Below the pieces are notes generated by a model that saw only the letters and a program-made list of their open reading frames with translations, searched no databases and was not told where the DNA came from. 64,000 nt of DNA from IMG/VR virus record IMGVR_UViG_3300032167_000069, one strand, 5' to 3'. Every line of letters starts with the position of its first letter. The stretch's first letter is position 1. The DNA comes from a virus. Lineage: Duplodnaviria; Heunggongvirae; Uroviricota; Caudoviricetes. The translations under genes and the position numbers were made by a program. This document shows, in pieces, positions 18,467 through 45,096 of the stretch.

Positions 18467-18475
18467 ATTCTTACC

Positions 18476-19526: not shown

Positions 19527-19547
19527 AACTTTTACCTCGTCCTTATA

Positions 19548-31166: not shown

Positions 31167-32795
31167 TTATTCGTCGTCTTCAACAACGTCAGTTTCTTCA
31201 ACTGCAATACCATAAGGCACGTCGCTTTCTTCGCACTCATAGTATCCTTCGTTAACTACTGCCTCATTATACTCTCCGCTTTCGGTTGCATCTAATGATG
31301 TATCATCTTTTGAACCACCAAAAATTCCCTTGAGAGGCTCAGCAAAACCCTTAACTAATTCCTGAATTTCGCCACTAAAAGACTGACCATTTAACGCCTT
31401 GTTCTCAACATCAAGCTTCTTCATCATACTGGGAATGCTGGAAAGTGTGTCAATTAAAACGTTTCCAGTTGCACCCTGAGCACTGCTACCACCGATATTT
31501 ACGAATTCTGCATTCTTACCGATGTCAGCCATAATCTGGGCTGTCTTTGTTGCAATTTCAATACGAGCATTAGCTTCAATCTTTAAACGCTCAATCTCAA
31601 AGTTAACCTTGTCATTTCCGGCACGAGCTTCAGCAAGAGCTTTTTCACCTTCGGCTTTTGCAAACAACATAGCCTTTTCTGCTTCAGCTTCCGCAGCACC
31701 CTTTTTGGCAATAATCTCAGCTTCAGTTTCACCCTCAACTTTAATTCTGTTAGCATTTGCCCTCGCTTCCTCTTCGATAGCTTTTGCCTTACCTTTTGCC
31801 ACCTGCTCCATAACCTTAGCTTCCGCCTCTGCGTTGATTGTGGCAACTCGTGCTTCCTCTTCAGCCTTGATTTCTGCCCTTACTCTCTCAGCCTCAGCCT
31901 TTGTTTTGATAACTTCTTTCTCTTTTACAGCCGCAAGATTAGCCTGTTCCTGTCTTACAACAGCCACACGACCTTCCTGTTCTGCAATTTCCTGCAACCT
32001 TACAGTTCTCTGGAGTTCACCAGCGATTTCAGCATCCGCATTTGCCTTGTCTGTTTCAGCCTTAAACTCTGCCTTTTTCAAACTGTTATCTCTGTTCTTT
32101 TCAGCAATCTGAAGCTCAGTATCGAGTTCGCTTTGTTTTGCAGCCTTTTCAGATTCAGCATTCTGCTGTCTAATCTGCTGATTTGCAGTAGCTTTTACTT
32201 TTTCGGCTTCTTTTCTCTTTTCTTCACGGTCAATCGCTGCGATATCATCATAATATCCATACTTATCCGTAATATCCTGAATGTTAAGCGATACAAGCTC
32301 AAGACCCATATCTGTCAATTCATCACTTACAGATTCAACAATTGCTTCCTTAAATGTTTCTTTGTCGTTCTGTACCTGTTCAGGTGTCATACTTGCAACA
32401 ACACTTCTTACAGAACCCATAAGCGTGAGCTTAACATCCTCAATAATACCTCTCTGTCCTCTTTCCTTAAACGAAACAATCGCTTTCTTTAATACATCGA
32501 GGTCTTTTGTGTTAGGTCTAATCTGAGCTGTCCAGTCAACGATAATCGGCACAGATGTTTTTGTCTTAATCTCATCTCCGTCAGTTGGAACTGTTAACAT
32601 ACACAAATCAAAGTATGATGCTTTTCTGAAAATCGGGATAACGAAGCTACCGCCAGAAACCTTGATTTTAGGCTCTTTTCCGCCTGTGATAATTAACGCT
32701 TTGTCAACATCTGCAACTTTGTAGATGCAACAAAGAAAAATAATAAGTGCCGCAAGAATACCAAGTGAAATTCCACCGTAAATTAAAAACTGCAT
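31167..32795 (-). CDS. SPFH/band-7 (flotillin-like) membrane protein with a long Ala/Glu-rich coiled coil
   Basis: An N-terminal TM helix, then an SPFH-like core, then an EA-rich coiled-coil repeat region and an acidic tail. It lies directly downstream of the RT on the same strand. Confidence 0.55.
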   Translation of the reverse strand: MQFLIYGGISLGILAALIIFLCCIYKVADVDKALIITGGKEPKIKVSGGSFVIPIFRKASYFDLCMLTVPTDGDEIKTKTSVPIIVDWTAQIRPNTKDLDVLKKAIVSFKERGQRGIIEDVKLTLMGSVRSVVASMTPEQVQNDKETFKEAIVESVSDELTDMGLELVSLNIQDITDKYGYYDDIAAIDREEKRKEAEKVKATANQQIRQQNAESEKAAKQSELDTELQIAEKNRDNSLKKAEFKAETDKANADAEIAGELQRTVRLQEIAEQEGRVAVVRQEQANLAAVKEKEVIKTKAEAERVRAEIKAEEEARVATINAEAEAKVMEQVAKGKAKAIEEEARANANRIKVEGETEAEIIAKKGAAEAEAEKAMLFAKAEGEKALAEARAGNDKVNFEIERLKIEANARIEIATKTAQIMADIGKNAEFVNIGGSSAQGATGNVLIDTLSSIPSMMKKLDVENKALNGQSFSGEIQELVKGFAEPLKGIFGGSKDDTSLDATESGEYNEAVVNEGYYECEESDVPYGIAVEETDVVEDDE

Positions 32796-32864: not shown

Positions 32865-34019
32865 TCACGATAAATCCCCCTTTATTAGCTTTTCTATGTC
32901 TGCGCCAAACTTCTGGTTATTATGAGAAATAACATAGTTTATATAATCTGGCTCAATCATTCTATAATAGGAAATAAGCCCAGCAAATACTTGTACGTCG
33001 TGCCTATCCCAATTAACGTTTTTCTTTTTGTCGCAAATATAATTGCAACACATAGCTTTGAATGCTTTTTTCTTTTGATGACCAATGGTTATCTCGTTAT
33101 CTTTGTTAAGCATAACACCCAAATTCCAGTTCCGACCAGCGGATGAACCGTATCTCGTTTTTTCTTTTTTGATTGCAAATGGAGCATCAAATCTTTTCAG
33201 AACATCGAGAACATATTCCTGCACCGCTTTGTAATCAAAATTCACTTTTGATGAAATCAAAATATCATCAGCATATCGTGTGTAAACAAAATGCTCGTCC
33301 ATCTTCCTTAAATCATTACAAAGTTGATGGTCGATTGGAATCATCATAATATTGGTGATTGTCGGCGATATAGGTGTTCCCTGTGGCAAACCGCCGTTTA
33401 AAAAACAAAGACTCAAAGCTCTTTTTAAGGCTTCGAGTCCATTTCTTCTTTTCACTATTTCACTAAACGGGAATATTTTTGAAAACATTGATAACACAAA
33501 CTCCTCTGTTGTGCTACCAAAAAAGTCCGAGAAATCAAGTTTTGCGAACCATTTACTTTCGTTCTGCTGATGTCTCTTAATTGAGTCAATTGTGCATCTA
33601 CCTTTTACATATGCAAAAGCAGATGTATGATACAATGCAAACATATTCTTTTCAAAAATAGTTTTCAAATTACGCAATGCATTCATCAATTCAGGTACAG
33701 GTGCATTAATTTCTCTCAAACCGCCACTTTTCTTTGGTATATGGAACGTTTCATACAGCGACTTCCTATCTACCTCAAATAAATTTGCATATTGAGAATT
33801 AAACTGTTCAAGAGCATAAATCATTGCGTTAAAATTGAATTTATCAAGAAATTTTTCGTTTAACTGCTCTCTGTAATGTGTTCTTGTGTTTGTTACATTG
33901 GGCACAATCATTCTTGATACATCAACCGCACCCGCCAGAATATCATCTAATGATAACTGATAATATATTGGCGATTGTTGAATTGTTACATAAGGCATAC
34001 TAATTCTCCTTTCGTACAT
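32865..34019 (-). CDS. Reverse transcriptase, retron/Abi-like type (not DGR type)
   Basis: IPKKSGGLREINAP (RT motifs 1/2), AKLDFSDFFGS (motif 3), GLPQGTPISP (motif 4), YTRYADDILISS (motif 5, YADD). KTRYGSS...NLGVMLN...IGHQKKKAF follows the pattern of the retron region after YADD. AYVKGRCTIDSIKRH sits at the NAxxH position. At 384 aa it has no maturase or endonuclease domain. Confidence 0.75.
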   Translation of the reverse strand: MYERRISMPYVTIQQSPIYYQLSLDDILAGAVDVSRMIVPNVTNTRTHYREQLNEKFLDKFNFNAMIYALEQFNSQYANLFEVDRKSLYETFHIPKKSGGLREINAPVPELMNALRNLKTIFEKNMFALYHTSAFAYVKGRCTIDSIKRHQQNESKWFAKLDFSDFFGSTTEEFVLSMFSKIFPFSEIVKRRNGLEALKRALSLCFLNGGLPQGTPISPTITNIMMIPIDHQLCNDLRKMDEHFVYTRYADDILISSKVNFDYKAVQEYVLDVLKRFDAPFAIKKEKTRYGSSAGRNWNLGVMLNKDNEITIGHQKKKAFKAMCCNYICDKKKNVNWDRHDVQVFAGLISYYRMIEPDYINYVISHNNQKFGADIEKLIKGDLS

Positions 34020-34059
34020 ACTGTAATCTACAAGATATATAAGCGTCTATGCAGCACGA

Positions 34060-34290
34060 GATGCTAAGCTTTTGCTGGTAACTTGGTCATCAGTGAGATG
34101 AGAGTTCATCTGATGAAAACCCAGTATTTATGCGGTATTTCTCTATTGATGGATTTGGGCAGACCTGTCGGGAAGCGTAAGCCACGGCTGTGGGTGATTG
34201 CCATCCTGAGCTGTCTCCCTGTGTTTTTCTCCAGCAAAGTGTTACTTTGGCTTATAACACAAAGCATCTGAAAACTCAGATTATTCATTA
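34060..34290 (-). ncRNA. Structured GC-rich ncRNA locus B, immediately upstream of the RT start (retron msr/msd-like position)
   Basis: Conserved module at 34216-34262. Inverted repeats cttttgctgg (34069-34078) and ccagcaaag (34221-34229) bracket about 160 nt. Several GC hairpins are present. The ORF 34106..34288 is a translation of the repeat. Confidence 0.5.
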
Positions 34291-34305
34291 CAAGTATGTT
34301 AATAT

Positions 34306-34545
34306 TTATTCATAACATTCATCTAAATCCTCATTGTCTATATTCACCTCTGAGTTGTCTTGTTCTACGTGAATATAGCAATAGGAATCTCCGCATATTG
34401 CAATTTTTGCTTCTGGCGGATAATTATTTAATTGTTCGATTAACTGTTTTACAGTTGTGTTTGGCAAGAAAACTTTTCTGTTTGCATCATACATATCATC
34501 TCTCCTAAATTTCATCAATATCGCAAGTCCATTGACGCCATTCAA
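34306..34545 (-). CDS. Hypothetical small protein
   Basis: 79 aa, between ncRNA loci C and B. Confidence 0.35.
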   Translation of the reverse strand: MNGVNGLAILMKFRRDDMYDANRKVFLPNTTVKQLIEQLNNYPPEAKIAICGDSYCYIHVEQDNSEVNIDNEDLDECYE

Positions 34546-34873
34546 ATCTCAAAAACTTCTGAATAGCTTCTTCGAGCGAATCAGCCTCGATAACTTTAGT
34601 CCACATATGGCTACCTATCAAAACTTCATCGTATCTTTTAGGTTCATCGCATACTACAATATCGCCGATGCGTTTCTCTGGAGTGTAACAACCTTTAGTT
34701 TCAGCGGTATAATATGCAATTAGGCGAGTGTTTAAGTAAAATTCACTTCCATAATATCCACAGAAACTTCCACGTCCATCAGTTTTGCACTGTTCAAACA
34801 GCCCAATTAAACTGTTTTCATATGCAACCTTTTTAACAGAGTCGTCATAAAACTTATTTACATAAAACTTCAT
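34505..34873 (-). CDS. Hypothetical protein
   Basis: 122 aa. Confidence 0.4.
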   Translation of the reverse strand: MKFYVNKFYDDSVKKVAYENSLIGLFEQCKTDGRGSFCGYYGSEFYLNTRLIAYYTAETKGCYTPEKRIGDIVVCDEPKRYDEVLIGSHMWTKVIEADSLEEAIQKFLRFEWRQWTCDIDEI

Positions 34874-35039
34874 TGAAAATACGCTCCTTTACATATAAAA
34901 TCAGTCTTTTATAAACACCTACGATCAAACATTATAAAATACAATCTTGAGGAAATCCGGATACCTTCGTCGGAACCACTTCAGATATATAAATTATAAA
35001 TTAAAGTAGGGATTTGTCTATGAAAAGTGTTGATAAATT

Positions 35040-35222
35040 GAGAATTTATCGACATAAGGACTTGACAAAGCACGCAATGACCTGTAGTGGAGGTGGTAGC
35101 ACCCGGCATCGGGCTCTGGAGGCGTCATCGCCGTCCCCTTCTTTTCGCCTATCAAAATATCACTTCGGCTGACAACACAAAGCATTTGAAATTAATCAAA
35201 TAATGCATCGTAGGTGTTTATG
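35040..35222 (-). ncRNA. Structured GC-rich ncRNA locus C, immediately 3' of the CLec-like gene stop. Shares the conserved module.
   Basis: cttttcgcctatcaaaatatcacttcggctgacaacacaaagc at 35150-35192, then a unique GC-rich hairpin segment. It shares an 11-nt identity (cccgatgccgg) with the VR-like region of the upstream gene. Confidence 0.45.
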
Positions 35223-35224
35223 GT

Positions 35225-36106
35225 TTATATTGTTAATATTGAAAAAAGTTCTTCTTCAGACACATCTTCGTACACGATTTCAGTTTGGATTACATCATAA
35301 TAACCCATATCGTCTGGTTCGTCACTTATAAGGATTTCAGGATTGATTTTCAAAGCGGGACGGACACCCAAAATGCCATCATACGCACTGCAATAGTAGT
35401 AATCACCGCCACGACTGACGTACCTGACGCCGCAACCACCGCCGGCATCGGGAGAACGGAGCAAATAATACCAGTTCTCGTCATATTCCACTTCTTCATC
35501 AACATTAGAATATTCTACGGCGTAATCAGTGGGCATAGCGGCTCTATCTGCATTTATTTCATTTTTAAAATATTCCCAGTAATCACCTTCGGACACGTTT
35601 CTTATTGTTCCACCGTACAAATTGGTGTATGAAGGCAGAAATACCTTTCTGGTTATTACGTCAAGTCGCTCATCTTCACGGGTCACTTCGCAATCAGGAA
35701 GTGCCGTCATTACCGTAGAATCATCTATTGCATCAATTTCCCAGCCCTCAAAAAATCTCAAGAAGCCGTGATGATTTGCATATCCTGTGTTTCCTGAAAC
35801 CAAATTTCCTGTGGGTGGCTCATCGTATTCGTGGCGTTTAATAAAGCATTCATCATCGCTACTGTTTAAAAACTGGTCGATATTTGATACCGAGTAGCGA
35901 TTATTACCATAACGCTGACGATAAGCATCGGGGTTTTCCACTTCTCTCGCATCGAATGCACGGAAATCCTCAATCCTTTCTGACATAAAGGTATTATCTC
36001 CGTTTACCTTTATCCAAGTAATCTTATGAGTACCCTCATCGCCAATACTATACGCACCAAAACGCACCTTTTCGCCAACATTGAGTTCGCTTATTCTTCG
36101 TGCCAT
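35225..36106 (-). CDS. CLec/FGE-fold protein with a DGR-variable-region-like C-terminus (putative receptor-binding/adhesin-type protein)
   Basis: The C-terminus NWYYLLRSPDAGGGCGVRYVSRGGDYYYCSAYDGILGVRPAL resembles FGE/CLec-type DGR target ends (LRS...RGG...GxRP/C.). It is Y/S/G-rich. Confidence 0.5.
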   Translation of the reverse strand: MARRISELNVGEKVRFGAYSIGDEGTHKITWIKVNGDNTFMSERIEDFRAFDAREVENPDAYRQRYGNNRYSVSNIDQFLNSSDDECFIKRHEYDEPPTGNLVSGNTGYANHHGFLRFFEGWEIDAIDDSTVMTALPDCEVTREDERLDVITRKVFLPSYTNLYGGTIRNVSEGDYWEYFKNEINADRAAMPTDYAVEYSNVDEEVEYDENWYYLLRSPDAGGGCGVRYVSRGGDYYYCSAYDGILGVRPALKINPEILISDEPDDMGYYDVIQTEIVYEDVSEEELFSILTI

Positions 36107-36128: not shown

Positions 36129-36800
36129 TTAAAAAGCATCGACAGTATGACCAAAAGCATCAATTAAAATCAACTTACTGATACTGCCACCTTTTGCAAA
36201 ATTTATAAAATTAGATACACCGTGGGCAACAATCATTCTAACCGTCGGAACAACAGAAAGAGTCATATTACAAGCTGACACAGGTGTTTCGGCTTTTGCT
36301 TCTTCGTGAGTAAAAGCCATAGATTTAAGGAAATCTTCAACCATCTTCTTATTCTTCCAGTCCGCAGCATAATGCTGAGCGTCTGTAAGTCTCATACGGA
36401 AATCGAACATAGCTTTTACATAAGGATTGTCCTTGCAACTTTCCGCAATTTCACGTCTCAAATCAATGTTATCAACACAGAGGAAAACATAGCCAGACAA
36501 CTTCTGCCCTACATATCCTTTGTCAACAAGCTTGATTTCCTTTTTTACTTCAGGGTTGATTTCGTAAAGCATATCTGCCAATGCCTCAACCTTTGTTTTT
36601 CCGATATCAACCTGTCTGAACATCTGATTCGCAATGTTGTGTGGTTCTACGTGGTCAAAATCATAAAGAGTTATATTTGTGAGACCAAATCTGACAAGAT
36701 TTTCTGCGACCGTAGAGCCGATTGCACCACAGCCTATAATGTGTAATCTTTCTTTGCACATTTCAGGCTGAAAAAATTCATATGATTTTGCTAAATCCAT
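36129..36800 (-). CDS. ThiF/MoeB-family E1-like adenylyltransferase
   Basis: IIGCGAIGS is a Rossmann nucleotide loop. LYDFDHVEPHNIANQ fits E1. At 223 aa it is a minimal E1. Confidence 0.6.
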   Translation of the reverse strand: MDLAKSYEFFQPEMCKERLHIIGCGAIGSTVAENLVRFGLTNITLYDFDHVEPHNIANQMFRQVDIGKTKVEALADMLYEINPEVKKEIKLVDKGYVGQKLSGYVFLCVDNIDLRREIAESCKDNPYVKAMFDFRMRLTDAQHYAADWKNKKMVEDFLKSMAFTHEEAKAETPVSACNMTLSVVPTVRMIVAHGVSNFINFAKGGSISKLILIDAFGHTVDAF

Positions 36801-36812
36801 ACCCTCAACTCC

Positions 36813-37703
36813 TTATGTATCAAATCTGTCCTGACGATAGATATCATAAGCCTCATCTTCCATATCCTCAGAACCTCTGTTTTTCCAACCACTACCAACA
36901 TTAGATTTACCCTGCTGGTGTTGGTTTACTTTAGGCTTTTCCTTATCTTTTCCGGTGCTCGGTGTGTTATTTGCAGGCTTTGTACTACCGTTATACCCAC
37001 CATATCCACCGTTATAACCGCCATAGCTTTTTCCACCATAACTATACCCAGTTACAACCGTTGTCTTCTTTTTAACCTGCTCTTTTGCTTCCTCAACAAA
37101 AGCATCAAGGTCGTATCCGTCACCAAGAATGCCATACGAAATATCCTTGTTTTCATACAAAGTGTTGTTCTGGAGATCGTAAATCTTTGTGTTATTCTCC
37201 AGTTTCTTGTTCCAAATCATAAAAATATAATACATATCATCTGTAAGCTGAGCGAGAATGCTCTCCTGATGATTTGTATCAACCGCAGACGGTGTGGTGC
37301 CGAAATTTACGTGGCTATGACCCTGCATAATGATGTGATTAAAACGTTCATCTTCAATGTTGTCCATAATCCATTTAGCATACGCTTCTGTGTCCATTTC
37401 AACCGTAGAGCCCGTTACCGTCTGAGGATACACAACAAGGTCTGAAATAAGGAAGTTTGCACCCTCAATGCGCTCACCGACACCGTGCCAAGCAACCTCT
37501 GAATCAAAAGACATAAGTAATGCAATCATTTTTGAATAAGCTTCCGGTGTAAAGAAGATTGTTGCTTTTTCATCTTCTTTATATGTAAAATTCTTATTGT
37601 AGCTGATTTTTCCATCAGCCATTTTTGTTCCAGCAAGTGTTTTTGCAAACTCTTCAAGTGCCTGTTTCTTTAACTCTTCTGTGAGTTTAATAGGTTTTGC
37701 CAT
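36813..37703 (-). CDS. JAMM/JAB (MPN+) metallopeptidase with a Gly/Tyr-rich C-terminal tail
   Basis: HSHVNFGTTPSAVD carries the HxH...S..D JAMM motif; an upstream E is present. The tail is GYSYGGKSYGGYNGGYGGYNG. Confidence 0.6.
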   Translation of the reverse strand: MAKPIKLTEELKKQALEEFAKTLAGTKMADGKISYNKNFTYKEDEKATIFFTPEAYSKMIALLMSFDSEVAWHGVGERIEGANFLISDLVVYPQTVTGSTVEMDTEAYAKWIMDNIEDERFNHIIMQGHSHVNFGTTPSAVDTNHQESILAQLTDDMYYIFMIWNKKLENNTKIYDLQNNTLYENKDISYGILGDGYDLDAFVEEAKEQVKKKTTVVTGYSYGGKSYGGYNGGYGGYNGSTKPANNTPSTGKDKEKPKVNQHQQGKSNVGSGWKNRGSEDMEDEAYDIYRQDRFDT

Positions 37704-39166
37704 TATTTTTCGACCTCCTGTGCTTCATTTTCCTGTTCCTGACTTAAAAGCCAGTTATATGCTTCTGTAGGCGTGCAAGATGTTCCATCGGGAAGCTGAA
37801 TTACAGCCTTACAACTTGATGTGAACAATCTACCCATAAATGGTGCAACCGTCTGTGAGCCCTCTGACAAATTGAGGTTTTTCGCAGATGATACACACTG
37901 TTCTATAGCAGCGATATAATCGCCTTTTGCTAAAAGCTGGTCTATGAGCGGTCTGTTATTTCCGATACAAGCATGGAAATCAAAATGAGGATTTGTTAAA
38001 TAGTCATTATATTCCATCGGATAATCATATCTCTGTATCGTATCAACTCTACCACGCATATCTAAATCGTAGTACGCACGTACTTTAATCTTTAATAATG
38101 GTTCATCGCCAAAAACAGCATCGAGCAATTTCTTTCGAGCTGCTTCTTCGTAAAAAGCTTCCGCAGAAACATTATAACCAGTAAACAAATAGCTTCTCGA
38201 ATTTTTCGTCATACGCTCGTACATCTCAGGATCATAATTTTCAATAGTTGTACCAACAATGATTTTTATGTGCTGATTGTCAACATATATTGGGTTAATA
38301 TGTCTGTTACAAACAAAGTAATCAACAATTTCCGAATCATTGCCAGCTTCTTTTATCTGATAAGCCAAGCCACTCTCTTTAATACGAAGATTATCCATAT
38401 TTTCAATCATATTCTGATAATCTGCCATTAAACGTTCCATTCTTGACTGCTGATTTGCAATTTCATTCTTTACAACATCCAACTGTCTCTGTTTTGCTCT
38501 GGCTTCAAACCCGCCGAGCAATTTCTGTATCTGTGCAGTTCTGAAGTCATATTTTGATGCAAACTCCTCAATAATTCTCTCATATTCAGGAGCATAACGG
38601 TTGGTGAGTGCTTTTACGAGAGCCTTTTCTTCTTCATTGATAGGATTCTCTGCGAAATACCACGGCACCAACCTTGAGATAAGCGACTGTATAAAGTGCC
38701 AAATTCTTGTATTAAGACACGCAACAAATATTGCGACGCTTTTCTCTTCCTCATTTATATAAAAACGAACATTTGCCTGCTTTGCAACGAATACGTGAAG
38801 GTCTTCCAATTCTGTAAATTTAGGATAGACCTGTGTAAAATGACTTTCAATCTTATTGAAAGATGTAGTAATACTGCTTTCTGTACCATTGAAACCGCAA
38901 ACAAAGATCGTGTTATTGCCTATGCCATCTGACAGAATTCTTACTATATCCTCATCAGAATAATCTCTCAATGAGGAATCTCTGTCATTTCTAACCTTAA
39001 CATTTAATGAAATGTGTTCCTTTTTCTTCATTCTTGGAGCTAACAAAGCTCTGAGTGTCGCAAGAAACGAATTATCACCGTTAAAAGTTGCGCCCACAAT
39101 GTTAGGAAACATTTCGTTTGCAATTTCGTTTGTCAGAGTCAGTCCATATAATTCTTTATTAAACAT
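37703..39166 (-). CDS. Hypothetical 487-aa protein in the Ubl-E1-JAB operon (possible E2-like or accessory; unassigned)
   Basis: ORF translationally coupled to the JAB gene; no motif recognised. Confidence 0.45.
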   Translation of the reverse strand: MFNKELYGLTLTNEIANEMFPNIVGATFNGDNSFLATLRALLAPRMKKKEHISLNVKVRNDRDSSLRDYSDEDIVRILSDGIGNNTIFVCGFNGTESSITTSFNKIESHFTQVYPKFTELEDLHVFVAKQANVRFYINEEEKSVAIFVACLNTRIWHFIQSLISRLVPWYFAENPINEEEKALVKALTNRYAPEYERIIEEFASKYDFRTAQIQKLLGGFEARAKQRQLDVVKNEIANQQSRMERLMADYQNMIENMDNLRIKESGLAYQIKEAGNDSEIVDYFVCNRHINPIYVDNQHIKIIVGTTIENYDPEMYERMTKNSRSYLFTGYNVSAEAFYEEAARKKLLDAVFGDEPLLKIKVRAYYDLDMRGRVDTIQRYDYPMEYNDYLTNPHFDFHACIGNNRPLIDQLLAKGDYIAAIEQCVSSAKNLNLSEGSQTVAPFMGRLFTSSCKAVIQLPDGTSCTPTEAYNWLLSQEQENEAQEVEK

Positions 39167-39280
39167 CGTACTGCCTCCTGCTTATATTTTTTGTCAACCC
39201 CAGATTTTCGGGGTAATAAAAAGCGGATGCCTCTGAGTGAAGCATCCGCCATACCACGAATTATTTATATGTATTGCGAC

Positions 39281-39511
39281 TTACGCAGCGTTGTCAGCCT
39301 TAACAACGTTAAGGAGATAACACTTCTCAGTAATTCCGTGCTGAGCAAAAGTCTTATCGAGATCGCCGGGGTTAAGTGAAGAACCGTCAAGATGCATTAC
39401 ACCACTTGTGTAATCAATGCCGTTATCCTCAAGCACCGCTCTTAAAGTTGTGTTTTCGTCAACAATAACTGCTTCTCTTCTTGTGTTATTACCAATAGTT
39501 ACCTTAATCAT
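39281..39511 (-). CDS. Ubiquitin-like beta-grasp protein (ThiS/MoaD/Ubl-like), 76 aa, with no terminal GG
   Basis: MIKVTIGNNTRREAVIVDENTTLRAVLEDNGI...LDGSSL... has a ThiS/Ubl-like pattern. Its size and its position at the head of the E1/JAB operon agree. Confidence 0.45.
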   Translation of the reverse strand: MIKVTIGNNTRREAVIVDENTTLRAVLEDNGIDYTSGVMHLDGSSLNPGDLDKTFAQHGITEKCYLLNVVKADNAA

Positions 39512-39589
39512 AATAAATCTCCTTTAATTCTTAAAAATTTCTGATTTTACTTTTTCGGCGGGCTCTAAGCCCGCCGATGCCGACCGCAA

Positions 39590-39982
39590 TTACATTACAG
39601 TAATGTTCTCACGTACTTCTGCCTTTTCAGCTTCAACACCTTCAAGTGCATCTTCAAACTGCGCTTCAACCTTATTAAGCTTGATAATCGCATTGCCGAT
39701 TACATCTTCAGCGTATGCTGCTGCGTCTGCTGTGTCTGCGGGAATTCTCATTGTGATAATAGCTTTCTTCTCACCGTTCTTAGAAACGCTTCCGAAGCTT
39801 GCGCCATATCCGTTGATGTTACCCTCGCCTGCTGTTGTGCCAACCTTAAAAACAACTTCTTTGCCGTCTTCGCTGTAAAGGCAAAGTGCCTTCGGGCGAT
39901 GCTTTTCAAGTGTCTTCAAAGTTTCAAGTGTGTGTGCCGATTCGATGACCATAGCGTCACCAGCGATTAAAATTTTTGCCAT
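39590..39982 (-). CDS. Hypothetical protein
   Basis: 130 aa. Confidence 0.4.
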   Translation of the reverse strand: MAKILIAGDAMVIESAHTLETLKTLEKHRPKALCLYSEDGKEVVFKVGTTAGEGNINGYGASFGSVSKNGEKKAIITMRIPADTADAAAYAEDVIGNAIIKLNKVEAQFEDALEGVEAEKAEVRENITVM

Positions 39983-40401: not shown

Positions 40402-41964
40402 TTACCCCCTCAAAACATCTTCGATTGGCTGGTATCTTTCCGAGTTGATTGTTTCAAGTAAACATTCATACGGGTCTGTCTTTCCGCTCATAACCATTTT
40501 ACAAATATTTACCGAAAATCCACTCACGAGAGCAACGCCCAGCTTGTTACTTCTCACCGGAATTGTTCCCGTTCTTGAATTAACATTCCAGAAAACAAGC
40601 CTTGGCAATTCATAGCCAACCTGCTTATATCTTGCACCAATTACATCGAACAACTTATCGTTTTTAATTGCATAGTCGCAATTATATCTTCCGCCGTGTC
40701 CAACAGTTGCACAACCATCAAATTCCATATCAGAAATAATCAGGATGTTCTTCGGCATATCTTCCTGTGCCATATTGTTATTAACCGCAGTTTTCAAAAT
40801 TAAGTCAAATACTGCTTCGATATTTGTATTGGCAACTTCGTTATGCTGAGCCGCAATAGCCAATTTATCTCTCAGGCTATTAGCGTGTCCAAAGTCAACC
40901 AATTGTGGACGTTCAGAGAAAGTAATATATTTATCTTTTAGGCACCCCGAAGACCTTTCTGCGAAATATACAGCCAAGCTGTTAGCAACTTCAAGAGCCG
41001 TTACATTTGTGCCACCTACTGTTGTTCTCATAGAACCAGAACCATCAGCTACAACAATTGTGTTTCCGCAACCCTCAACCATATCAGGAAGATTGTTCCA
41101 GAGAGCTTCAACAGAAGCATCATAATCCTTTAACTGATTTCCATAGTATCCGTAACTACCAGCATAATACTTGTGAACAATGTCGTGCGGATAAAGTGTT
41201 GCCGCATTGATTTTTGCTTCGCCATTTTCAATTTTGCCGAGAAACTCTCTTCTTCTTTCCTCGTCGTTTCTTAAAAAGGCATTATTATAAATAAGGTTTG
41301 CACGTGACGGAACCGTTTCATAGTTGATTTCGCCCCACTGCTTTGCAGACATCTTAATTTCGACAACATCAATGTGTTTGCGAAGCTTACTCAAAAGCTT
41401 ACGATAGTCAGCCTCTTTGATATCTAAGTGCTTACGAATTATTTTTGAAAGTTTTTTACTTTCCTCTGAAGACGCATTTGCTGACGGAAGCCATTTTGCT
41501 AACAATGAGATTGGCTTGCCATTTTCGCACCCCTCGACGTCAGCTTTAAGCTGTTTCTTTATGTATTCAATAACCGCACCGCAAAGTTTTTCGTTTTCAA
41601 GGAAAACCCACAAATCATCGAATCTTCCGTATTCTGCAACAAGCGGAATAAGCTTTTCGGCAAAATCGGATTCGTATTCAGCAACAAATTTCATCGCCGT
41701 TCTGAACAATCTACGCTCACCCAAACCACCACGGACATCTCTTGCAAAGAAAAGCCATTTCATAGCAAGGATTTTATCCTCAAGAAATGCTGCCGCAAAC
41801 TTCTTTGCAATACCCTCTTCGCTTGCTGAACGCAACGATGCAACCGCAAAATTGATGTCAAGCAAATTCTTGCCGGTTGTTTTATAACCAAGTGCACCGT
41901 TTTCTGTTGTGGATGTGTTGAAATCTTCAAGTGCAGTTTCTTTTAACTTCTCAATAAATGACAT
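40402..41964 (-). CDS. Helical N-domain + C-terminal vWA (MIDAS) protein; Ro60/Rsr-like (TROVE-like + vWA) architecture
   Basis: A C-terminal vWA domain with a MIDAS motif (TIVVADGSGSMRTT ... ILIISDMEFD). An N-terminal helical domain of about 330 aa. Total of 520 aa, matching Ro60/Rsr domain order and size. TROVE identity was not verified. Confidence 0.45.
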   Translation of the reverse strand: MSFIEKLKETALEDFNTSTTENGALGYKTTGKNLLDINFAVASLRSASEEGIAKKFAAAFLEDKILAMKWLFFARDVRGGLGERRLFRTAMKFVAEYESDFAEKLIPLVAEYGRFDDLWVFLENEKLCGAVIEYIKKQLKADVEGCENGKPISLLAKWLPSANASSEESKKLSKIIRKHLDIKEADYRKLLSKLRKHIDVVEIKMSAKQWGEINYETVPSRANLIYNNAFLRNDEERRREFLGKIENGEAKINAATLYPHDIVHKYYAGSYGYYGNQLKDYDASVEALWNNLPDMVEGCGNTIVVADGSGSMRTTVGGTNVTALEVANSLAVYFAERSSGCLKDKYITFSERPQLVDFGHANSLRDKLAIAAQHNEVANTNIEAVFDLILKTAVNNNMAQEDMPKNILIISDMEFDGCATVGHGGRYNCDYAIKNDKLFDVIGARYKQVGYELPRLVFWNVNSRTGTIPVRSNKLGVALVSGFSVNICKMVMSGKTDPYECLLETINSERYQPIEDVLRG

Positions 41965-42076
41965 AAAAAATCCTCCTTTTGATTTATATAAAATCCCAAG
42001 ACGGATTTCTGAATAATAGATTAAAAGTCTACTCCAAAAATGATTGCTGTTACCGTCTTTAGGATTTTTTATTATA

Positions 42077-42224
42077 GGTGGGGATGGTAGGATTTGAACC
42101 TACGAAATCTTCTTGATTTACTGTTTTATGAAAAAGATTGCTGTTGGTGTCAAACTAAACACCTTTCATTAGACAATTTCCTTCAGCCACTTGGATACAT
42201 CCCCAAATATTTAATTATCATCCT
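42077..42224 (-). ncRNA. Oversized tRNA-like ncRNA (about 148 nt) with class-II D-arm, T-arm and acceptor, plus an internal insert carrying the AACAGCAAT motif
   Basis: Acceptor ggggatg/catcccc, D-arm tcc-aagtggctgaa-gga, variable hairpin aaatc-aagaa-gattt, T-arm gtagg-ttcaaat-cctac. The insert contains the ggtgtttagtttgacacc hairpin followed by aacagcaat. Confidence 0.5.
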
Positions 42225-42420
42225 CACAACAAATATGAACCACAAGCTCATTGCCTTGATTTATATCAAACCTGCTGTAATCGAAGATGACTTTCCGGAC
42301 TTTATAACGTTTATTCTCAAAGATTACTGTATCACCAACACTTGGCACTGGATAACTTGACGATGAACTTTTATATCCGCCAATTGCATTTCCTTTGTTA
42401 TAAATCATAATACTAAACAT
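42211..42420 (-). CDS. Small hypothetical protein
   Basis: Starts at the internal Met MFSIMIYNKG... The listed N-terminal extension reads through the tRNA-like gene. Confidence 0.35.
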   Translation of the reverse strand: MFSIMIYNKGNAIGGYKSSSSSYPVPSVGDTVIFENKRYKVRKVIFDYSRFDINQGNELVVHICCEDDN

Positions 42421-42449
42421 CTTCTTGCCTCCTTGAGTTATGATAATTA

Positions 42450-42571
42450 TGGTGAGGGTGGCAGGACTCGAACCTACGACACACGGCTCCCAAAGCATTA
42501 AGAATATTGCTGTAAGCGTTTATCACTAAACACATTCTTATACGTTGCTCTGCCAACTGAGCTACACCCTC
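42450..42571 (-). ncRNA. Oversized tRNA-like ncRNA (122 nt) with the GTGATAAAC...ACAGCAAT insert
   Basis: Acceptor gagggtg/caccctc, canonical D-arm gctcagttggcagagc, T-arm, encoded CCA. A 45-nt structured insert (helix taagaat/attctta; hairpin gttta-gtga-taaac; acagcaat) replaces a normal anticodon arm. Confidence 0.5.
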
Positions 42572-42588
42572 ATATAAAGATGGCATTG

Positions 42589-42701
42589 TGGAAGATTGAG
42601 GAGTTGAACCTCAAAGCTAAAGTTTTTTCAGAACTCTTCTTGTAAAGTTGCTGTATGCGATTGCCATCCATTTCGCTTATGTTGCTGTAACCGACTCTTC
42701 C
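42589..42701 (-). ncRNA. Oversized tRNA-like ncRNA (113 nt) with two ACAGCAAC motifs
   Basis: Acceptor ggaagag/atcttcc, T-arm tgagg-ttcaact-cctca, no encoded CCA. The internal sequence ggttACAGCAACataagcg...catACAGCAAC carries the motif twice. Confidence 0.4.
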
Positions 42702-42793
42702 ATATTTCAAGGCACCCTAAGACTTATGCTTGTCTTAAAAAATTTTTAAAATCTGTAGCATTATATATCTTGCTGTGAGTGCCTTTTCAATGT

Positions 42794-43180
42794 TTACTCA
42801 ATAATTTCCAACTTCATAAAAATATCGCTTGGAACATTACCTTTCCAAACGAACTCATTTTTCAGAATGAAATTGTTATATGCCGAAGCTGTTTTGTTAG
42901 CTCTCATTTTTGCCTGCTCAGCCCACGATTGTTTTTCTTCGCTCTCGGAATTTTTATACTGCTCATATGTAAGTTTATCCGACTCGTATGAAGTAATCAT
43001 TGACCTGCAAGTATCTTCAACCTGCTTAATTGTTTCGTAATTTGTTGCATCATCTGCTTTCTGAACCTGAAAGAAGTATGTGTTAATAACACCTCTACCA
43101 GCAGGTGTTATTGCGAACACTCCAAAACAAATCAGAAGCACACAAAGTATAGCAACAACTATTGTTGATACCTTTCCCAC
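42794..43180 (-). CDS. Membrane-anchored hypothetical protein
   Basis: 128 aa with an N-terminal TM helix. Confidence 0.4.
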   Translation of the reverse strand: MGKVSTIVVAILCVLLICFGVFAITPAGRGVINTYFFQVQKADDATNYETIKQVEDTCRSMITSYESDKLTYEQYKNSESEEKQSWAEQAKMRANKTASAYNNFILKNEFVWKGNVPSDIFMKLEIIE

Positions 43181-43182
43181 TC

Positions 43183-43776
43183 TTATTCACCAACTTTCAA
43201 AATTGGATTGTCTATTTCAAACGGAATGTCGGAATATAAGTATGTCCCCGTCCATTCAACATACTTACCATCGGGCGTAAAGAAGAAAATTCCTGCATCA
43301 TTTTCGCCATAAGAACCGTCAACATCTGCCAACCATTCACTGTAACTTGCTGCATATTCCTCGCTATCAGGTGTAAGATAGCTATTCAAACTACTTACCT
43401 TGCCGTCAACAATAAACTTTTCTACAACAGCACCGCTTGTTGTGAATAATGCAATATAACCCAACGGCTTTTCAATTTCGCACACAAGTGCATTTGCTTT
43501 TTCTCTCTGACCGTTAACCCAATACGCTCTGCGAATTAAGTTGTATCTTTCCAACGAATAGTTGATATCCGTAGGTGTAGGCTGATTAGCCTGCAAATTA
43601 TTTGACACCTGTTTAGTGTTTGCCTGATCGCTGTAGCTTCCGCTCATTTCGCACCCGGCACAAACTCCAACCACTAAAACAAGCGCCAGTACAATTCCTA
43701 AAATCTTTTTCATACTCCAACTTACCGCCTTTCTACATAAAACCCTTATTTTATAAATGGAATTCCTACAAGACAC
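43183..43776 (-). CDS. Lipoprotein / secreted hypothetical protein
   Basis: Signal peptide and Cys-rich lipobox region (LVVGVCAGC). Confidence 0.45.
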   Translation of the reverse strand: MSCRNSIYKIRVLCRKAVSWSMKKILGIVLALVLVVGVCAGCEMSGSYSDQANTKQVSNNLQANQPTPTDINYSLERYNLIRRAYWVNGQREKANALVCEIEKPLGYIALFTTSGAVVEKFIVDGKVSSLNSYLTPDSEEYAASYSEWLADVDGSYGENDAGIFFFTPDGKYVEWTGTYLYSDIPFEIDNPILKVGE

Positions 43777-44167
43777 AAAAAGCTTTTATAATCCCAAATT
43801 ATATGCATTAAATATTGCTGCGTGTGTCTTTAAAAGGTATATATCAATCCGCAAATGCGGTTATTGTTGAATGTTGGGTAAGTTTTTGCTTACCCGACGG
43901 AATTTCACCGTCCCATTACTCTAAAACCCGACCACCCATTACATAATCTACGAAAAGTTATGTAAAATGCCTTTGAGTAAATTGAACTTCACAAAAATTA
44001 GAAACGAGAGGCTAAAAAGTTTCAGAAAGGAGATGCTACTTCTTAGACCAAAAGAAGTATTTGCGCTGTGTTATGCCAAAAACTGACAGCAAAGCAAAAT
44101 CAAAAAATTTGTAAATTTGATAATATGTTTTATTATGTATTTGCTGTAAGCCTCTCTTATATGTTGA

Positions 44168-44286
44168 GCGGCGGGTGAGAATCGAACTCACGACACATAG
44201 TTTGGATTCTTGAAAAAATCGCTGTTAGTGAAGTTTATCACTCCACATTTTTTCGACTATTATTCTACCATCTGAACTACCGCCGC
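44168..44286 (-). ncRNA. Oversized tRNA-like ncRNA (119 nt) with the GTGATAAAC...ACAGCGAT insert
   Basis: Acceptor gcggcgg/ccgccgc, D-arm gttcagatggtagaat, T-arm gtgag-ttcgatt-ctcac. The insert has an 8-bp helix gaaaaaat/attttttc, then hairpin gtggag-tgataaa-cttcac, then aacagcgat. Confidence 0.5.
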
Positions 44287-44290
44287 ATAA

Positions 44291-44409
44291 GGTGCCCAGA
44301 GTTGGACTCGAACCAACGACCACGGAGTTACCAGCTCAATATAAAGTTGCAGTTTAAGGCTTTTTCAAACCTCAATTATTACGTGCTCTACCGACTGAGC
44401 TATCTGGGC
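44291..44409 (-). ncRNA. Oversized tRNA-like ncRNA (119 nt) with the GAAA-tetraloop hairpin plus AACTGCAAC insert
   Basis: Acceptor gcccaga/tctgggc, canonical D-arm gctcagtcggtagagc, T-arm gttgg-ttcgagt-ccaac. The insert is aggttt-gaaa-aagcct followed by aaactgcaac. Confidence 0.5.
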
Positions 44410-44428
44410 AAATTTAATGGTGGCTTTT

Positions 44429-44573
44429 GTGGGACGCCTGAGAGTTGAACTCAGGAGCAATATGTAGCTAATGCCACACATTCTTCATATCTATCTTTAA
44501 ATAAGTTATACTTGTAAGTTTGCTGTTAGTGTTCGCCACCCTATACACCATAAAGCTGTACCCTACCGTCCCA
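44429..44573 (-). ncRNA. Oversized tRNA-like ncRNA (about 145 nt) with the AACAGCAAAC motif
   Basis: Perfect 7-bp terminal stem tgggacg/cgtccca and T-arm cctgag-ttcaact-ctcagg. The D-arm is not canonical. The internal segment contains aacagcaaac. Confidence 0.35.
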
Positions 44574-45096
44574 TATTGATAATTGCAAAGAAGTCGTTTT
44601 CGTCAATCGGAGCGGTATTGAAATCGTCCCACGAATCACCTGACAATGCAGGCAAAGAAAACAAATACCGTATCACATCATCTGGCACCTCTTCTTTTAA
44701 CCAAGAACTTCCGAATTTATAACCGTTATCATATAACAAATCGGCACTTTCAAGAATTTCACAAACTCTTTTGTAGTCGTTTGCGTAATTGGCTATGTTG
44801 TTTTCCCTGAGAAACTCCATTTGTTTAGGTGTGCCAGCCCTTAAATCGTTTAAATGCCATCGTTTCCAAATTTCTTGGATTTTCTTTAAATCCTCACACT
44901 CGAATCCGTCAGATGGAATCAAACTTTCATCCGTTAAATCATCATAAATTTGACCTTGCGAATGCCAATTACCGTGTATTTTTAAAACGCCATTTCTTTG
45001 AAAGACTATCTGAACACGAAACCTACGGCACCCACCCCAACCAATTTGATAGGCTGGACAAATCAAACGCTTCATATCTCTATTTACTTCAAGCAT
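44563..45096 (-). CDS. Hypothetical protein
   Basis: 177 aa. Confidence 0.45.
   Translation of the reverse strand: MLEVNRDMKRLICPAYQIGWGGCRRFRVQIVFQRNGVLKIHGNWHSQGQIYDDLTDESLIPSDGFECEDLKKIQEIWKRWHLNDLRAGTPKQMEFLRENNIANYANDYKRVCEILESADLLYDNGYKFGSSWLKEEVPDDVIRYLFSLPALSGDSWDDFNTAPIDENDFFAIINMGR

What the first reader, a model, noticed from the sequence alone, without database searches (positions are those of the whole stretch)
40402..41964. Ro60/Rsr-like (helical + vWA MIDAS) protein encoded immediately next to the tRNA-like ncRNA family
The domain order (about 330 aa of helical repeats, then a vWA domain with DGSGSM MIDAS motif) and the total of 520 aa match Ro60/Rsr. In bacteria, and in some mycobacteriophages, Rsr is encoded beside tRNA-mimicking Y RNAs and RNA-repair genes (rtcB/rtcA). 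This phage has both an RNA-repair gene set and tRNA-like RNAs that start within about 110 bp of this gene. Identification of the N-terminal domain as TROVE is by architecture only.
Basis: inference. Interest (0 to 1): 0.7.

Follow-up and report, generated by a model that had tools for sequence, protein, structure and literature searches.

The report
Ro60-like phage protein beside tRNA-like RNAs
This phage gene encodes a distant structural relative of the Ro60 RNA-binding ring protein, from a very common but unstudied phage family, and it sits directly after a cluster of odd tRNA-like RNAs that all carry the same short sequence tag and may be its RNA partners.

Summary
The ORF is real: 40402-41964, minus strand, 520 aa, a helical N-terminal part followed by a vWA domain with DGSGSM.

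The neighbouring RNAs are not YrlA-type Y RNAs and lack the known Ro-binding motifs. They are tRNA-shaped RNAs with a 45-57 nt insert on the 5' side of the anticodon arm. The insert is a covarying hairpin followed by an invariant ACAGCAA. Plain hairpins around the gene carry the same motif.

Two scans that started from the RNA alone found a co-oriented DUF2828 gene in 66/119 and 59/120 stretches, usually within about 1.4 kb or less. In eight more distant phage lineages the gene lies within 4 kb of ordinary tRNA genes.

Best reading: a divergent Ro60-like protein genetically coupled to a new RNA family, probably forming an RNA-protein complex that acts on tRNA. Binding is untested.

The parts
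40402..41964 (-). CDS, 520 aa: Ro60-like fold protein of the DUF2828 + DUF7788 family (PHROG 850)
41080..41877 (-). Alpha-helical repeat domain (residues about 30-295), structurally equivalent to the Ro60 HEAT-like ring
40480..41064 (-). vWA domain (residues about 301-495) with a complete MIDAS site; DGSGSM at nt 41029-41046
   Evidence: DUF7788 covers residues 301-495. D307, S309, S311, M312, T380 and D412 are invariant. A family profile search of the PDB gives four Ro60/TROVE sequences as the top hits, two at E about 0.01-0.02 and two at about 0.9, plus one unrelated capsid protein at E about 1. hhalign against TROVE+vWA_Ro60 gives probability 92%, E 6e-7.
41985..42078 (-). Long hairpin in the 5' leader of the gene, with ACAGCAA (42044-42050) just 3' of the closing-stem strand AAGACGG
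   Evidence: MFE -24.8 kcal/mol, z -4.6. The motif is located. 53 of 63 distinct leaders in relatives carry the same kind of hairpin.
42079..42204 (-). tRNA-like RNA tl4 with a class-II-type D arm and an insert of hairpin + CAACAGCAAUC
   Evidence: Rfam tRNA 44.6 bits. Sequence and fold. Module anatomy.
42453..42571 (-). tRNA-like RNA tl3 with a 48-57 nt insert (hairpin + UUACAGCAAU); CCA is encoded
   Evidence: Rfam tRNA 45.8 bits with a 57-nt insertion. ARAGORN misses it without the intron option. CCA end.
42586..42703 (-). Degenerate element with two ACAGCAA copies (42648-42654, 42682-42688) and a T-arm-like hairpin GAGGUUCAACUCCUC
   Evidence: z -2.2.
42704..42790 (-). Stand-alone hairpin module AAGGCAC-UC-ACAGCAA...GUGCCUU
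   Evidence: Motif at 42770-42776. Fold z -3.3. This architecture recurs next to DUF2828 genes in 59 of 120 scanned stretches.
44167..44286 (-). tRNA-like RNA tl2 with an insert of hairpin GUGGAGU-GAUAA-ACUUCAC + UAACAGCGAU
   Evidence: Rfam tRNA 48.5 bits with a 53-nt insertion. Fold z -4.2.
44293..44409 (-). tRNA-like RNA tl1 with a GNRA-capped hairpin + AAACUGCAAC inserted between positions 28 and 29; the anticodon loop CUGGUAA is intact
   Evidence: Rfam tRNA 49.3 bits with a 57-nt insertion. Fold z -4.1. Orthologue alignment and covariation.
44414..44535 (-). Upstream element with ACAGCAA (44520-44526) and a T-arm-like hairpin CUGAGUUCAACUCUCAG
   Evidence: weak fold, z -1.8.

Best explanation
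The gene encodes a divergent Ro60-like protein. About 270 residues of alpha-helical repeats are capped by a vWA domain with a complete MIDAS site, in the same order and spatial arrangement as in Ro60/Rsr. It belongs to the large phage family DUF2828 + DUF7788 (PHROG 850), not to Pfam TROVE.

In this phage clade the gene is the last member of a co-oriented cluster of small structured RNAs. These use tRNA scaffolds, degenerate tRNA pieces or plain hairpins. All of them display the same unit: a helix end followed by a single-stranded NNA-CAGCAA.

The most likely mechanism is inferred, not shown. The protein would bind these RNAs through the hairpin-ACAGCAA unit, forming a complex that works like Ro60 with Y RNA. 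The tRNA-shaped body would act as the adaptor, engaging tRNA-handling enzymes or nucleases. The complex would serve quality control, processing or protection of tRNAs during infection. The copy in the gene's own leader could give feedback control.

Shown here: the fold, the family, the structure and conservation of the RNA module, and the genetic linkage.
Inferred: RNA binding, which RNAs are bound, and the tRNA-related role.
For: Fold.
- Foldseek's top four hits are all Ro60, full length, E 1e-5 to 3e-5.

Sequence.
- A family profile search of the PDB returns four Ro60/TROVE sequences as the top hits; the only other hit is an unrelated capsid protein at E about 1.
- 15 of 73 members weakly match vWA_Ro60.
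- hhalign against TROVE+vWA_Ro60 gives probability 92%, E 6e-7.
- The motif D-x-S-G-S-M is shared with Ro60.

Literature.
- A Listeria phage homologue has Rsr as its top HHpred hit and lies within 2 kb downstream of three abundant RNAs (PMC12282133).
- A TROVE-type phage Ro60 binds RNAs encoded upstream of its gene (PMC12135203).

RNA module.
- 110 of 165 unique long tRNA-like RNAs contain CAGCAA.
- The hairpin 5' of the motif has a median stem of 7 bp against 4 bp in shuffles, with 80 distinct arm sequences.
- In the RNAalifold consensus, 6 of the 7 hairpin pairs show compensatory changes.

Linkage.
- Starting from the protein, 69 of 76 loci have a same-strand tRNA-like RNA within 1 kb upstream. 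63 of those are the long kind, and the median gap is 236 nt.
- Starting from the RNA, 66/119 stretches and 59/120 stretches contain a DUF2828 gene, always on the same strand.
- Within the window, 8 of the 13 ACAGCAA copies lie on the minus strand in 42044-44526. None lies at the standard tRNA arrays at 25 and 30-31 kb.
- The gene lies within 4 kb of tRNA genes in 8 of 8 distant phage lineages sampled.
Against: - There is no TROVE match, and the N-domain alone has no detectable profile similarity to TROVE. Common descent of the helical part therefore rests on predicted structure only (pLDDT 75 and 82).
- Helical repeats match each other easily.
- The RNAs lack the known Ro-binding motifs and the YrlA topology.
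- The module is confined to one broad phage clade. Distant DUF2828 phages have only ordinary tRNAs nearby. The linkage could therefore be inherited gene order rather than function.
- About a third of the module RNAs keep a canonical anticodon arm, and some encode CCA. They may be working tRNAs, not protein partners.
- Roughly half of the RNA-first stretches showed no DUF2828 gene in the sequence fetched.
- No binding data exist for any DUF2828 protein.
Confidence: 0.5

Rival explanations
1. The protein is Ro60-like, but the neighbouring RNAs are real decoding tRNAs. They either carry an extra arm or have an insert that is spliced out. The gene would sit there only because this family is generally placed in or beside phage tRNA arrays, with no specific complex with these RNAs. 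The protein would act on tRNAs or other RNAs in general.
For: - All four RNAs score above the Rfam tRNA threshold, with complete acceptor, D and T arms.
- 39 of 118 keep a canonical 7-nt anticodon loop with U33 and A37.
- tl3 and many relatives encode CCA.
- Distant DUF2828 genes lie next to ordinary tRNA arrays.
- The phage encodes an RNA ligase, a kinase/phosphatase and a Thg1-like enzyme that could join or repair tRNA halves.
Against: - The same ACAGCAA unit also occurs on non-tRNA hairpins and degenerate scaffolds around the gene. Splicing of tRNAs would not need that.
- Two thirds of the module RNAs lack a canonical anticodon arm.
- ARAGORN's intron placements and anticodons are inconsistent between orthologues.
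- No bulge-helix-bulge or group I features were seen.
- tl3 and tl4 duplicate anticodons already supplied by standard tRNAs.
- Within this genome the modules sit at the DUF2828 locus and not at the standard tRNA arrays.
Confidence: 0.25
2. The hairpin-ACAGCAA units are cis-acting signals: processing sites, attenuators or operators that control expression of this gene cluster. Alternatively they are a small repeated selfish element that has spread into tRNA genes. In either case they are not trans-acting partner RNAs.
For: - Several copies lie in the leader directly before the start codon, and others lie just after the gene.
- Copies occur in different scaffolds and at slightly different insertion points (26/27, 28/29, 31/32), as expected for an inserted element.
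Against: - The motif and hairpin are conserved with compensatory changes across proteins only 51-69% identical, which argues for selection on the RNA.
- The tRNA bodies carrying the insert are themselves well conserved.
- No transposase or homing endonuclease is consistently adjacent. This was only inspected, not tested systematically.
- A cis-operator role is compatible with the main explanation and does not exclude it.
Confidence: 0.15
3. The Ro60 resemblance is convergent or generic (helical repeats plus vWA). The protein would not bind RNA and would instead act as a vWA/MIDAS-based protein-protein adaptor, for example a co-chaperone or an anti-defence factor.
For: - No sequence similarity in the N-domain.
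- vWA domains usually mediate protein contacts.
- The mycobacteriophage homologue LeBron gp53 is moderately toxic when overexpressed, which does not point to a specific activity (PMC13148394).
Against: - The vWA domain is specifically closest to the Ro60 vWA by sequence.
- The consistent placement beside tRNA or tRNA-like genes in unrelated phages points to RNA biology.
Confidence: 0.1

Closest known systems
Ro60/Rsr with Y RNAs (bacterial YrlA; Deinococcus Yrn1)
   Same: - Helical-repeat ring plus a C-terminal vWA/MIDAS domain of about 500 aa.
- DxSGSM motif.
- The gene is flanked by small RNAs that contain a tRNA-like domain.
- The genome also encodes RNA-repair enzymes.
   Different: - No TROVE sequence signature.
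- The RNAs have normal tRNA topology with an insert in the anticodon arm, rather than a permuted tRNA-like domain on a Ro-binding stem.
- The conserved motif is ACAGCAA, not GNCGAAN0-1G.
- No rtcB or rtcA lies next to the gene.
Thermus phage phiLo Ro60 with Yrl1/Yrl2 (PDB 9KOP, 9L5Y)
   Same: - A phage-encoded Ro60-type ring protein with its RNAs encoded just upstream of the gene.
   Different: - phiLo Ro60 is deposited in the PDB as a TROVE domain-containing protein.
- Its RNAs were picked by a CGAA motif.
- Sequence similarity to this protein is at noise level (E about 0.9 with the family profile).
DUF2828 'Ro-like RNA-binding proteins' of other phages (cluster L mycobacteriophages such as LeBron gp53; Listeria phage CKA15_055; Felixounaviruses; KVP40)
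   Same: - The same Pfam pair and the same PHROG, at 30-41% identity over the full length.
- The gene lies next to tRNA genes.
- The Ro-like label has already been proposed from HHpred.
   Different: - Those phages have only standard tRNAs nearby. The ACAGCAA module RNAs were seen only in the clade of this window.
- No member of the family has been studied biochemically.
tmRNA
   Same: A tRNA-like acceptor/T-arm body with a large insertion where the anticodon arm would be. tl4 gives a weak sub-threshold tmRNA hit (23.7 bits against 47).
   Different: - The inserts are only 45-57 nt.
- They have no tag reading frame with a stop codon and no pseudoknots.
- A full D arm is present.

Membership tests
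Ro60/TROVE (Pfam PF05731 + PF25045) | Match to the TROVE domain model | tested here: not met
   No TROVE hit for the protein at E up to 1, nor for any of 73 diverse relatives at E up to 10. Genuine phage Ro60 proteins score E 1e-38 to 1e-49.
Ro60/TROVE (Pfam PF05731 + PF25045) | Profile-profile similarity of the N-terminal helical domain to TROVE | tested here: not met
   hhalign of residues 1-300 or 1-210 against the TROVE N part gives probability 0.1-0.2%. The full-length hit (probability 92%, query 206-487) is carried by the vWA domain.
Ro60/TROVE (Pfam PF05731 + PF25045) | Ro60-type vWA domain with a MIDAS site | tested here: inconclusive
   The MIDAS residues are invariant. In a family profile search of the PDB, four of the five hits are Ro60/TROVE proteins, but they are weak (E 0.009-0.9). 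vWA_Ro60 is matched weakly by 15 of 73 members, below its cut-off.
Ro60/TROVE (Pfam PF05731 + PF25045) | Helical-repeat ring closed by the vWA domain (overall fold) | tested here: met
Ro60/TROVE (Pfam PF05731 + PF25045) | Binds Y RNA through a conserved helix or motif (GGUCCGA; GNCGAAN0-1G) | tested here: not met
   Neither motif occurs on the minus strand of 41965-44620. Binding itself cannot be tested with these tools.
Ro60/TROVE (Pfam PF05731 + PF25045) | Gene next to small RNAs that carry a tRNA-like domain | tested here: met
   Four tRNA-like RNAs lie within 2.5 kb upstream, the nearest 114 nt away. The arrangement is conserved in relatives and is recovered in scans that start from the RNA.
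Ro60/TROVE (Pfam PF05731 + PF25045) | Operon with rtcB/rtcA (many bacteria) | tested here: not met
   The neighbours are a small membrane protein, unknowns, a ThiF-like protein, DUF6273 and a reverse transcriptase. RNA-repair genes are 22-37 kb away. Listeria phage List-36 does have an RtcB-type ligase 1.3 kb downstream of its homologue.
DUF2828 + DUF7788 (PHROG 850) | Both Pfam models above their gathering scores, and full-length PHROG match | tested here: met
   DUF2828 120.2 bits (cut-off 29), DUF7788 151.6 bits (cut-off 27.1). PHROG 850 462 bits over residues 10-512. 710 phage records match by tblastn and 6832 clusters at 50% identity match.
YrlA / Y RNA (for the neighbouring RNAs) | Rfam YrlA or Y_RNA match; permuted order T arm - acceptor-like loop - D arm on a Ro-binding stem | tested here: not met
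   The only YrlA hit is 17.9 bits against a cut-off of 69. It spans the tl1/tl2 junction, which is the dimeric-tRNA artefact described in PMC4201824. The RNAs have the normal tRNA order of arms.
tRNA (Rfam RF00005) (for the neighbouring RNAs) | Cloverleaf with a canonical anticodon arm | tested here: inconclusive
   Scores are 44.6-49.3 bits against a cut-off of 29, but with 53-57 nt insertions. ARAGORN finds them only with the intron option. Only 39 of 118 relatives keep a canonical anticodon arm.

The most novel reading that the evidence does not exclude
DUF2828 proteins are a second, sequence-unrecognisable branch of Ro60-like ring proteins that phages use together with their own class of adaptor RNAs. 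In this clade the adaptors would be tRNA bodies and hairpins displaying a helix-ACAGCAA tag. The complex would work on tRNAs during infection, for example as a decoy, shield or repair platform against host anticodon nucleases. The hypervariable NNU anticodons of one RNA class (GUU, UUU, UGU, GCU, UCU, GGU) hint at an arms race.
Probability: 0.3. Interest if true: 0.8.

Novelty: new variant of a known kind. Interest (0 to 1): 0.6.

Why it matters
DUF2828 proteins occur in hundreds of sequenced phages, including Felix O1-like, KVP40-like, Listeria P100-like, Bacillus, Enterococcus, Campylobacter and cluster L mycobacteriophages. They form thousands of metagenomic clusters. Nothing is known about what they do.

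Three results here turn a database label into a testable hypothesis:
- the fold is Ro60-like;
- the gene almost always sits beside tRNA genes;
- in one clade it is coupled to a well-defined RNA module.

The hypothesis comes with concrete RNA ligands and point mutations to try. The RNAs themselves are a family that Rfam does not hold: tRNAs with an extra arm carrying an invariant heptamer. They are also routinely missed or mis-called by tRNA finders.

Tried and rejected
- **Direct sequence routes to Ro60.** phmmer and a shallow family profile against the PDB found nothing. Only a diverse profile gave weak Ro60 hits.
- **TROVE homology of the N-domain.** Local hhalign on trimmed alignments gave no signal.
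- **Reading the RNAs as YrlA.** Rejected on topology, Rfam score and motif.
- **Reading them as mini-tmRNAs.** Frames starting at GCA in ACAGCAA run into the T arm without a stop codon, and there are no pseudoknots. This was done by inspecting the sequence.
- **Reading them as intron-containing tRNAs with ARAGORN -i.** The calls are forced. Anticodons such as AAU, AAA, AGG and 'stop' appear, and intron positions shift between orthologues. Hand analysis places the insert in the 5' strand of the anticodon arm and leaves the loop intact in one class only.
- **ACAGCAA as window-wide over-representation.** There is none: 13 copies against 11 expected. The signal is the local strand-specific cluster and the conservation across loci.
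- **tl RNAs as recent copies of the phage's standard tRNAs.** The bodies are only 76-85% alike, so there is no evidence for this.
- **Literature searches** for DUF2828 function or for tRNAs with anticodon-stem inserts in phages found nothing relevant.
Full report
**1. Observation**

The ORF at 40402-41964 on the minus strand is real. It starts with ATG, encodes 520 aa and has an AAGGAGG ribosome-binding site upstream. An identical protein and thousands of relatives exist in metagenomes.

Two AlphaFold2 models were built. The first used 45 sequences (pLDDT 75, pTM 0.67). The second used 87 more diverse sequences (pLDDT 82, pTM 0.75). Both show the same layout:
- a poorly defined first 30 residues;
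- helices from about residue 33 to 290;
- a vWA alpha/beta domain at about 301-495;
- three C-terminal helices.

DGSGSM lies at residues 307-312. The full MIDAS set (D307, S309, S311, T380, D412) is invariant in 73 relatives that are 40-62% identical to the query.

**2. What family is it?**

Pfam assigns DUF2828 (E 1.3e-34) and DUF7788 (E 2.5e-44). The generic VWA_2 match is weak and there is no TROVE match. PHROGs assigns phrog_850, 'RNA-binding protein' (E 4.5e-138).

tblastn finds full-length relatives in 710 phage records, all below 42% identity. They include Escherichia/Salmonella Felixounaviruses, cluster L mycobacteriophages, Vibrio KVP40-like phages, and Listeria, Staphylococcus, Campylobacter, Enterococcus and Bacillus phages. 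Their annotations vary: hypothetical, DUF2828, vWFA protein, RNA-binding protein, 'Ro-like RNA binding protein', and once 'putative Ro sixty-related protein'. An exhaustive HMMER search finds 6832 clusters at 50% identity.

Genuine TROVE-type phage Ro60 proteins are a separate set of 358 records, mostly actinophages. They carry TROVE + vWA_Ro60 at E 1e-38 to 1e-56. Actinobacteriophage annotators use the same label for both sets.

**3. Is it Ro60-like?**

*Sequence evidence is weak and limited to the C-terminal half.*
- phmmer and a shallow profile find nothing in the PDB.
- A diverse family profile returns five PDB sequences. Four are Ro60 proteins: human E 0.009, Xenopus E 0.019, and Thermus phage phiLo E 0.9 (two entries). 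All four align around the MIDAS site. The fifth is an unrelated capsid protein at E about 1.
- 15 of 73 relatives give weak hits to vWA_Ro60. None hits TROVE.
- Profile-profile comparison with a 50-sequence TROVE+vWA_Ro60 alignment gives probability 92%, E 6e-7 over 249 columns (query residues 206-487).
- When the N-domains are compared alone, nothing remains (probability 0.1-0.2%).

*Structure evidence is clearer.*
- Foldseek against the PDB returns four significant hits. All are Ro60 and all align over the full length.
- About 200 residues of the helical domain therefore superpose on the Ro60 ring in the correct position relative to the vWA domain. The score rose as the model improved.

This agrees with a published HHpred observation for a Listeria phage homologue (PMC12282133).

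My conclusion is that the fold and architecture are Ro60-like with good confidence. Homology of the vWA half is likely. Homology of the helical half is plausible but not shown by sequence. The protein is not a member of Pfam TROVE.

**4. The neighbouring RNAs**

Rfam's tRNA model finds four RNAs of 117-126 nt upstream on the same strand:
- tl1, 44293-44409
- tl2, 44167-44286
- tl3, 42453-42571
- tl4, 42079-42204

Each has intact acceptor, D and T arms and 53-57 extra nucleotides where the anticodon arm should be. ARAGORN misses them unless introns are allowed.

They are not YrlA-type Y RNAs, for four reasons:
- YrlA has a permuted order of arms on a Ro-binding stem (PMC4201824), and these RNAs have the normal order.
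- The one sub-threshold YrlA hit spans the tl1/tl2 junction, which is the known dimeric-tRNA artefact.
- The bacterial and vertebrate Ro-binding motifs are absent from the region.
- No other Rfam family matches.

*Comparative analysis defines the insert.* I collected 80 loci with proteins 51-69% identical to the query, plus six closer ones.
- ARAGORN with the intron option gives 165 unique long tRNA-like RNAs, and 110 of them contain CAGCAA.
- Aligned on the motif, the insert reads: spacer, a hairpin of variable sequence, NNA-CAGCAA, a short U-rich spacer, then the rest of the anticodon arm.
- The hairpin has a median stem of 7 bp against 4 bp in shuffles, with 80 distinct arm sequences in 127 RNAs.
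- In a 25-sequence alignment, RNAalifold recovers the acceptor, D and T stems plus this hairpin. Six of its seven pairs show compensatory double changes.
- The insert sits on the 5' side of the anticodon arm, between positions 26/27, 28/29 or 31/32 depending on the class.

*The anticodon region varies between classes.*
- One class (39 of 118) keeps a canonical loop YU-NNN-AA. Its anticodons differ between near-orthologues: GUU, UGU, UUU, GCU, GGU and UCU. In 37 of the 39 the anticodon ends in U.
- The other classes have non-canonical sequences there.
- Some of the RNAs encode CCA.

*The same unit appears on other scaffolds.* In the window it occurs in the long hairpin in the gene's leader (41985-42078, z -4.6), in a hairpin at 42704-42790 (z -3.3), and in two degenerate elements with T-arm-like hairpins. 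In relatives, 53 of 63 distinct leaders carry such hairpins, with closing stems of the form AAGRCNN...NNGYCUUG. The constant feature is a helix end followed by single-stranded NNACAGCAA, while the scaffold varies.

**5. Linkage of the RNAs to the gene**

- *Starting from the protein.* 69 of 76 loci have a same-strand tRNA-like RNA within 1 kb upstream, and 63 of these are the long kind. The median gap is 236 nt, and all 560 tRNA calls are co-oriented with the gene.
- *Starting from the RNA, tRNA-embedded module.* A pattern for this form retrieved 119 viral stretches. 66 contain a DUF2828 homologue, always on the same strand and mostly 10-1350 nt downstream.
- *Starting from the RNA, stand-alone hairpin.* A tRNA-independent pattern retrieved 120 stretches. 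59 contain the gene, always on the same strand, with the hairpin mostly within 500 nt upstream or just downstream of the gene.
- *Missing cases.* Many stretches without the gene were simply too short.
- *Within the window.* 8 of the 13 ACAGCAA copies lie on the minus strand in 42044-44526. None lies at the standard tRNA arrays at 25 and 30-31 kb.
- *Gene context.* The genes on either side differ among these loci. Downstream there are tRNA arrays in some and a ThiF-containing cluster in others.
- *Limitation.* All these phages belong to one broad clade, so inherited gene order cannot be excluded.

*A more general pattern.* In eight distant lineages sampled from GenBank, the gene lies beside ordinary tRNA genes on the same strand:

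| Phage | tRNA genes near the DUF2828 gene |
|---|---|
| Lumos | 1.2 kb upstream |
| List-36 | 0.6 kb upstream, with an RtcB-type ligase 1.3 kb downstream |
| SEP9 | 2.3 kb downstream |
| KVP40 | 3.4 kb upstream |
| CPX | 240 bp upstream |
| Tsamsa | 610 bp upstream |
| VRE9_3 | both sides, within 40-400 bp |
| HY02 | 22 unannotated tRNAs starting 170 bp downstream |

These come, and no long insert RNAs occur in these loci. The one TROVE-type phage Ro60 locus that showed tRNAs (Streptomyces phage Karp) is likewise embedded among tRNA genes.

**6. Mechanism**

Shown here: a Ro60-like fold with a complete MIDAS site, a conserved structured RNA module, and tight co-oriented linkage between the two.

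Inferred: by analogy with Ro60 and Y RNA, and with phiLo Ro60 and its upstream Yrl RNAs (PMC12135203), the protein probably binds the hairpin-ACAGCAA unit. The tRNA-shaped body would serve as the adaptor to tRNA-handling enzymes or nucleases, and the leader copy could provide feedback control. I put this at about 0.5.

The rivals are as follows:
- The RNAs are working tRNAs with an extra or spliced arm, and the adjacency is generic (0.25).
- The modules are cis-acting signals or a spreading repeat (0.15).
- The Ro resemblance is generic and the protein is a vWA-based protein adaptor (0.1).

The only experimental datum on the family is that LeBron gp53 is moderately toxic when overexpressed in M. 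smegmatis (PMC13148394).

**7. Comparison and novelty**

The idea that DUF2828 proteins are Ro-like is already present in phage annotation and in one paper's HHpred remark. The protein on its own is therefore a new member of a known, uncharacterised family. Three things appear to be new:
- the explicit structural test, together with the negative TROVE test;
- the consistent placement next to tRNA genes in all eight distant lineages sampled;
- the ACAGCAA module RNAs and their linkage to the gene.

I found no Rfam family and no paper describing these RNAs. I therefore rate the finding a new variant of a known kind, with interest 0.6.

Noticed in passing
window 36129-39982 (minus strand); also L001 8169-12028 and L004 7695-11510: Directly downstream of the gene lies a conserved cluster: a 130-aa protein, a 76-aa protein that looks like a small beta-grasp/ubiquitin-like protein, 487-aa and 296-aa proteins with no family match, and a 223-aa ThiF/E1-like protein. 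This could be a phage ubiquitin-like conjugation module. The same order is kept in relatives.
   Followed up: partly
window 32865-36106 (minus strand): A reverse transcriptase (RVT_1, PHROG 2825) lies near a DUF6273 / Hoc-like head-decoration protein. The pair could be a diversity-generating retroelement with its target gene, and it recurs in relatives.
   Followed up: no
window 31167-32795 (minus strand); L090 1753-2685: A 542-aa SPFH/Band 7 protein lies directly after the standard tRNA array. In mycobacteriophage Lumos a 'Band 7-like' lipoprotein also lies just before the tRNA and the DUF2828 gene.
   Followed up: no
window 15987-27984 (minus strand): A large NAD-related gene set: NAD synthase, NAMPT-like phosphoribosyltransferase, NADAR, a PRPP-synthetase-like protein and an isochorismatase/nicotinamidase-like protein. 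It is interleaved with a Thg1-like protein, a DNA ligase and an AAA ATPase.
   Followed up: no
window 25176-25283 and 25071-25166 (minus strand): Two further odd tRNAs. One is a 108-nt RNA with an anticodon loop CUUGAAA and a variable region of about 35 nt (Rfam tRNA 34 bits). The other is a 96-nt tRNA-Gln(UUG) with an unusually long variable region. Neither carries ACAGCAA.
   Followed up: partly
L033 4371-4500, L034 4546-4673, L038 4466-4590, L041 4492-4618, L055 4271-4397, L057 4223-4352: Near-orthologous module RNAs with almost the same body and insert differ in the anticodon triplet (UUU, UGU, GUU, UCU, UAU, GCU). All end in U and are followed by AA. This looks like rapid anticodon switching or diversifying selection.
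   Followed up: partly
L094 5540-9357 (Escherichia phage HY02, NC_028872.1): ARAGORN finds 22 tRNA genes in this stretch, and Rfam's tRNA model confirms most of them. The RefSeq record annotates no tRNA there, and several small hypothetical CDSs overlap them.
   Followed up: yes
window 42211-42498 (minus strand): The mechanical 95-aa ORF overlaps the 3' end of tl3 by 46 nt. A shorter version starts at the ATG at 42419, which is preceded by AAGGAGG. It is the more likely gene, if the ORF is a gene at all.
   Followed up: partly
window 44520-44505, 42654-42639; L004 about 5385-5400: In several stand-alone copies ACAGCAA is followed after 2-3 nt by TTACAAG or TTTACAAAG. This could be a second conserved element or a promoter-like -35 box. 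It was not analysed.
   Followed up: no
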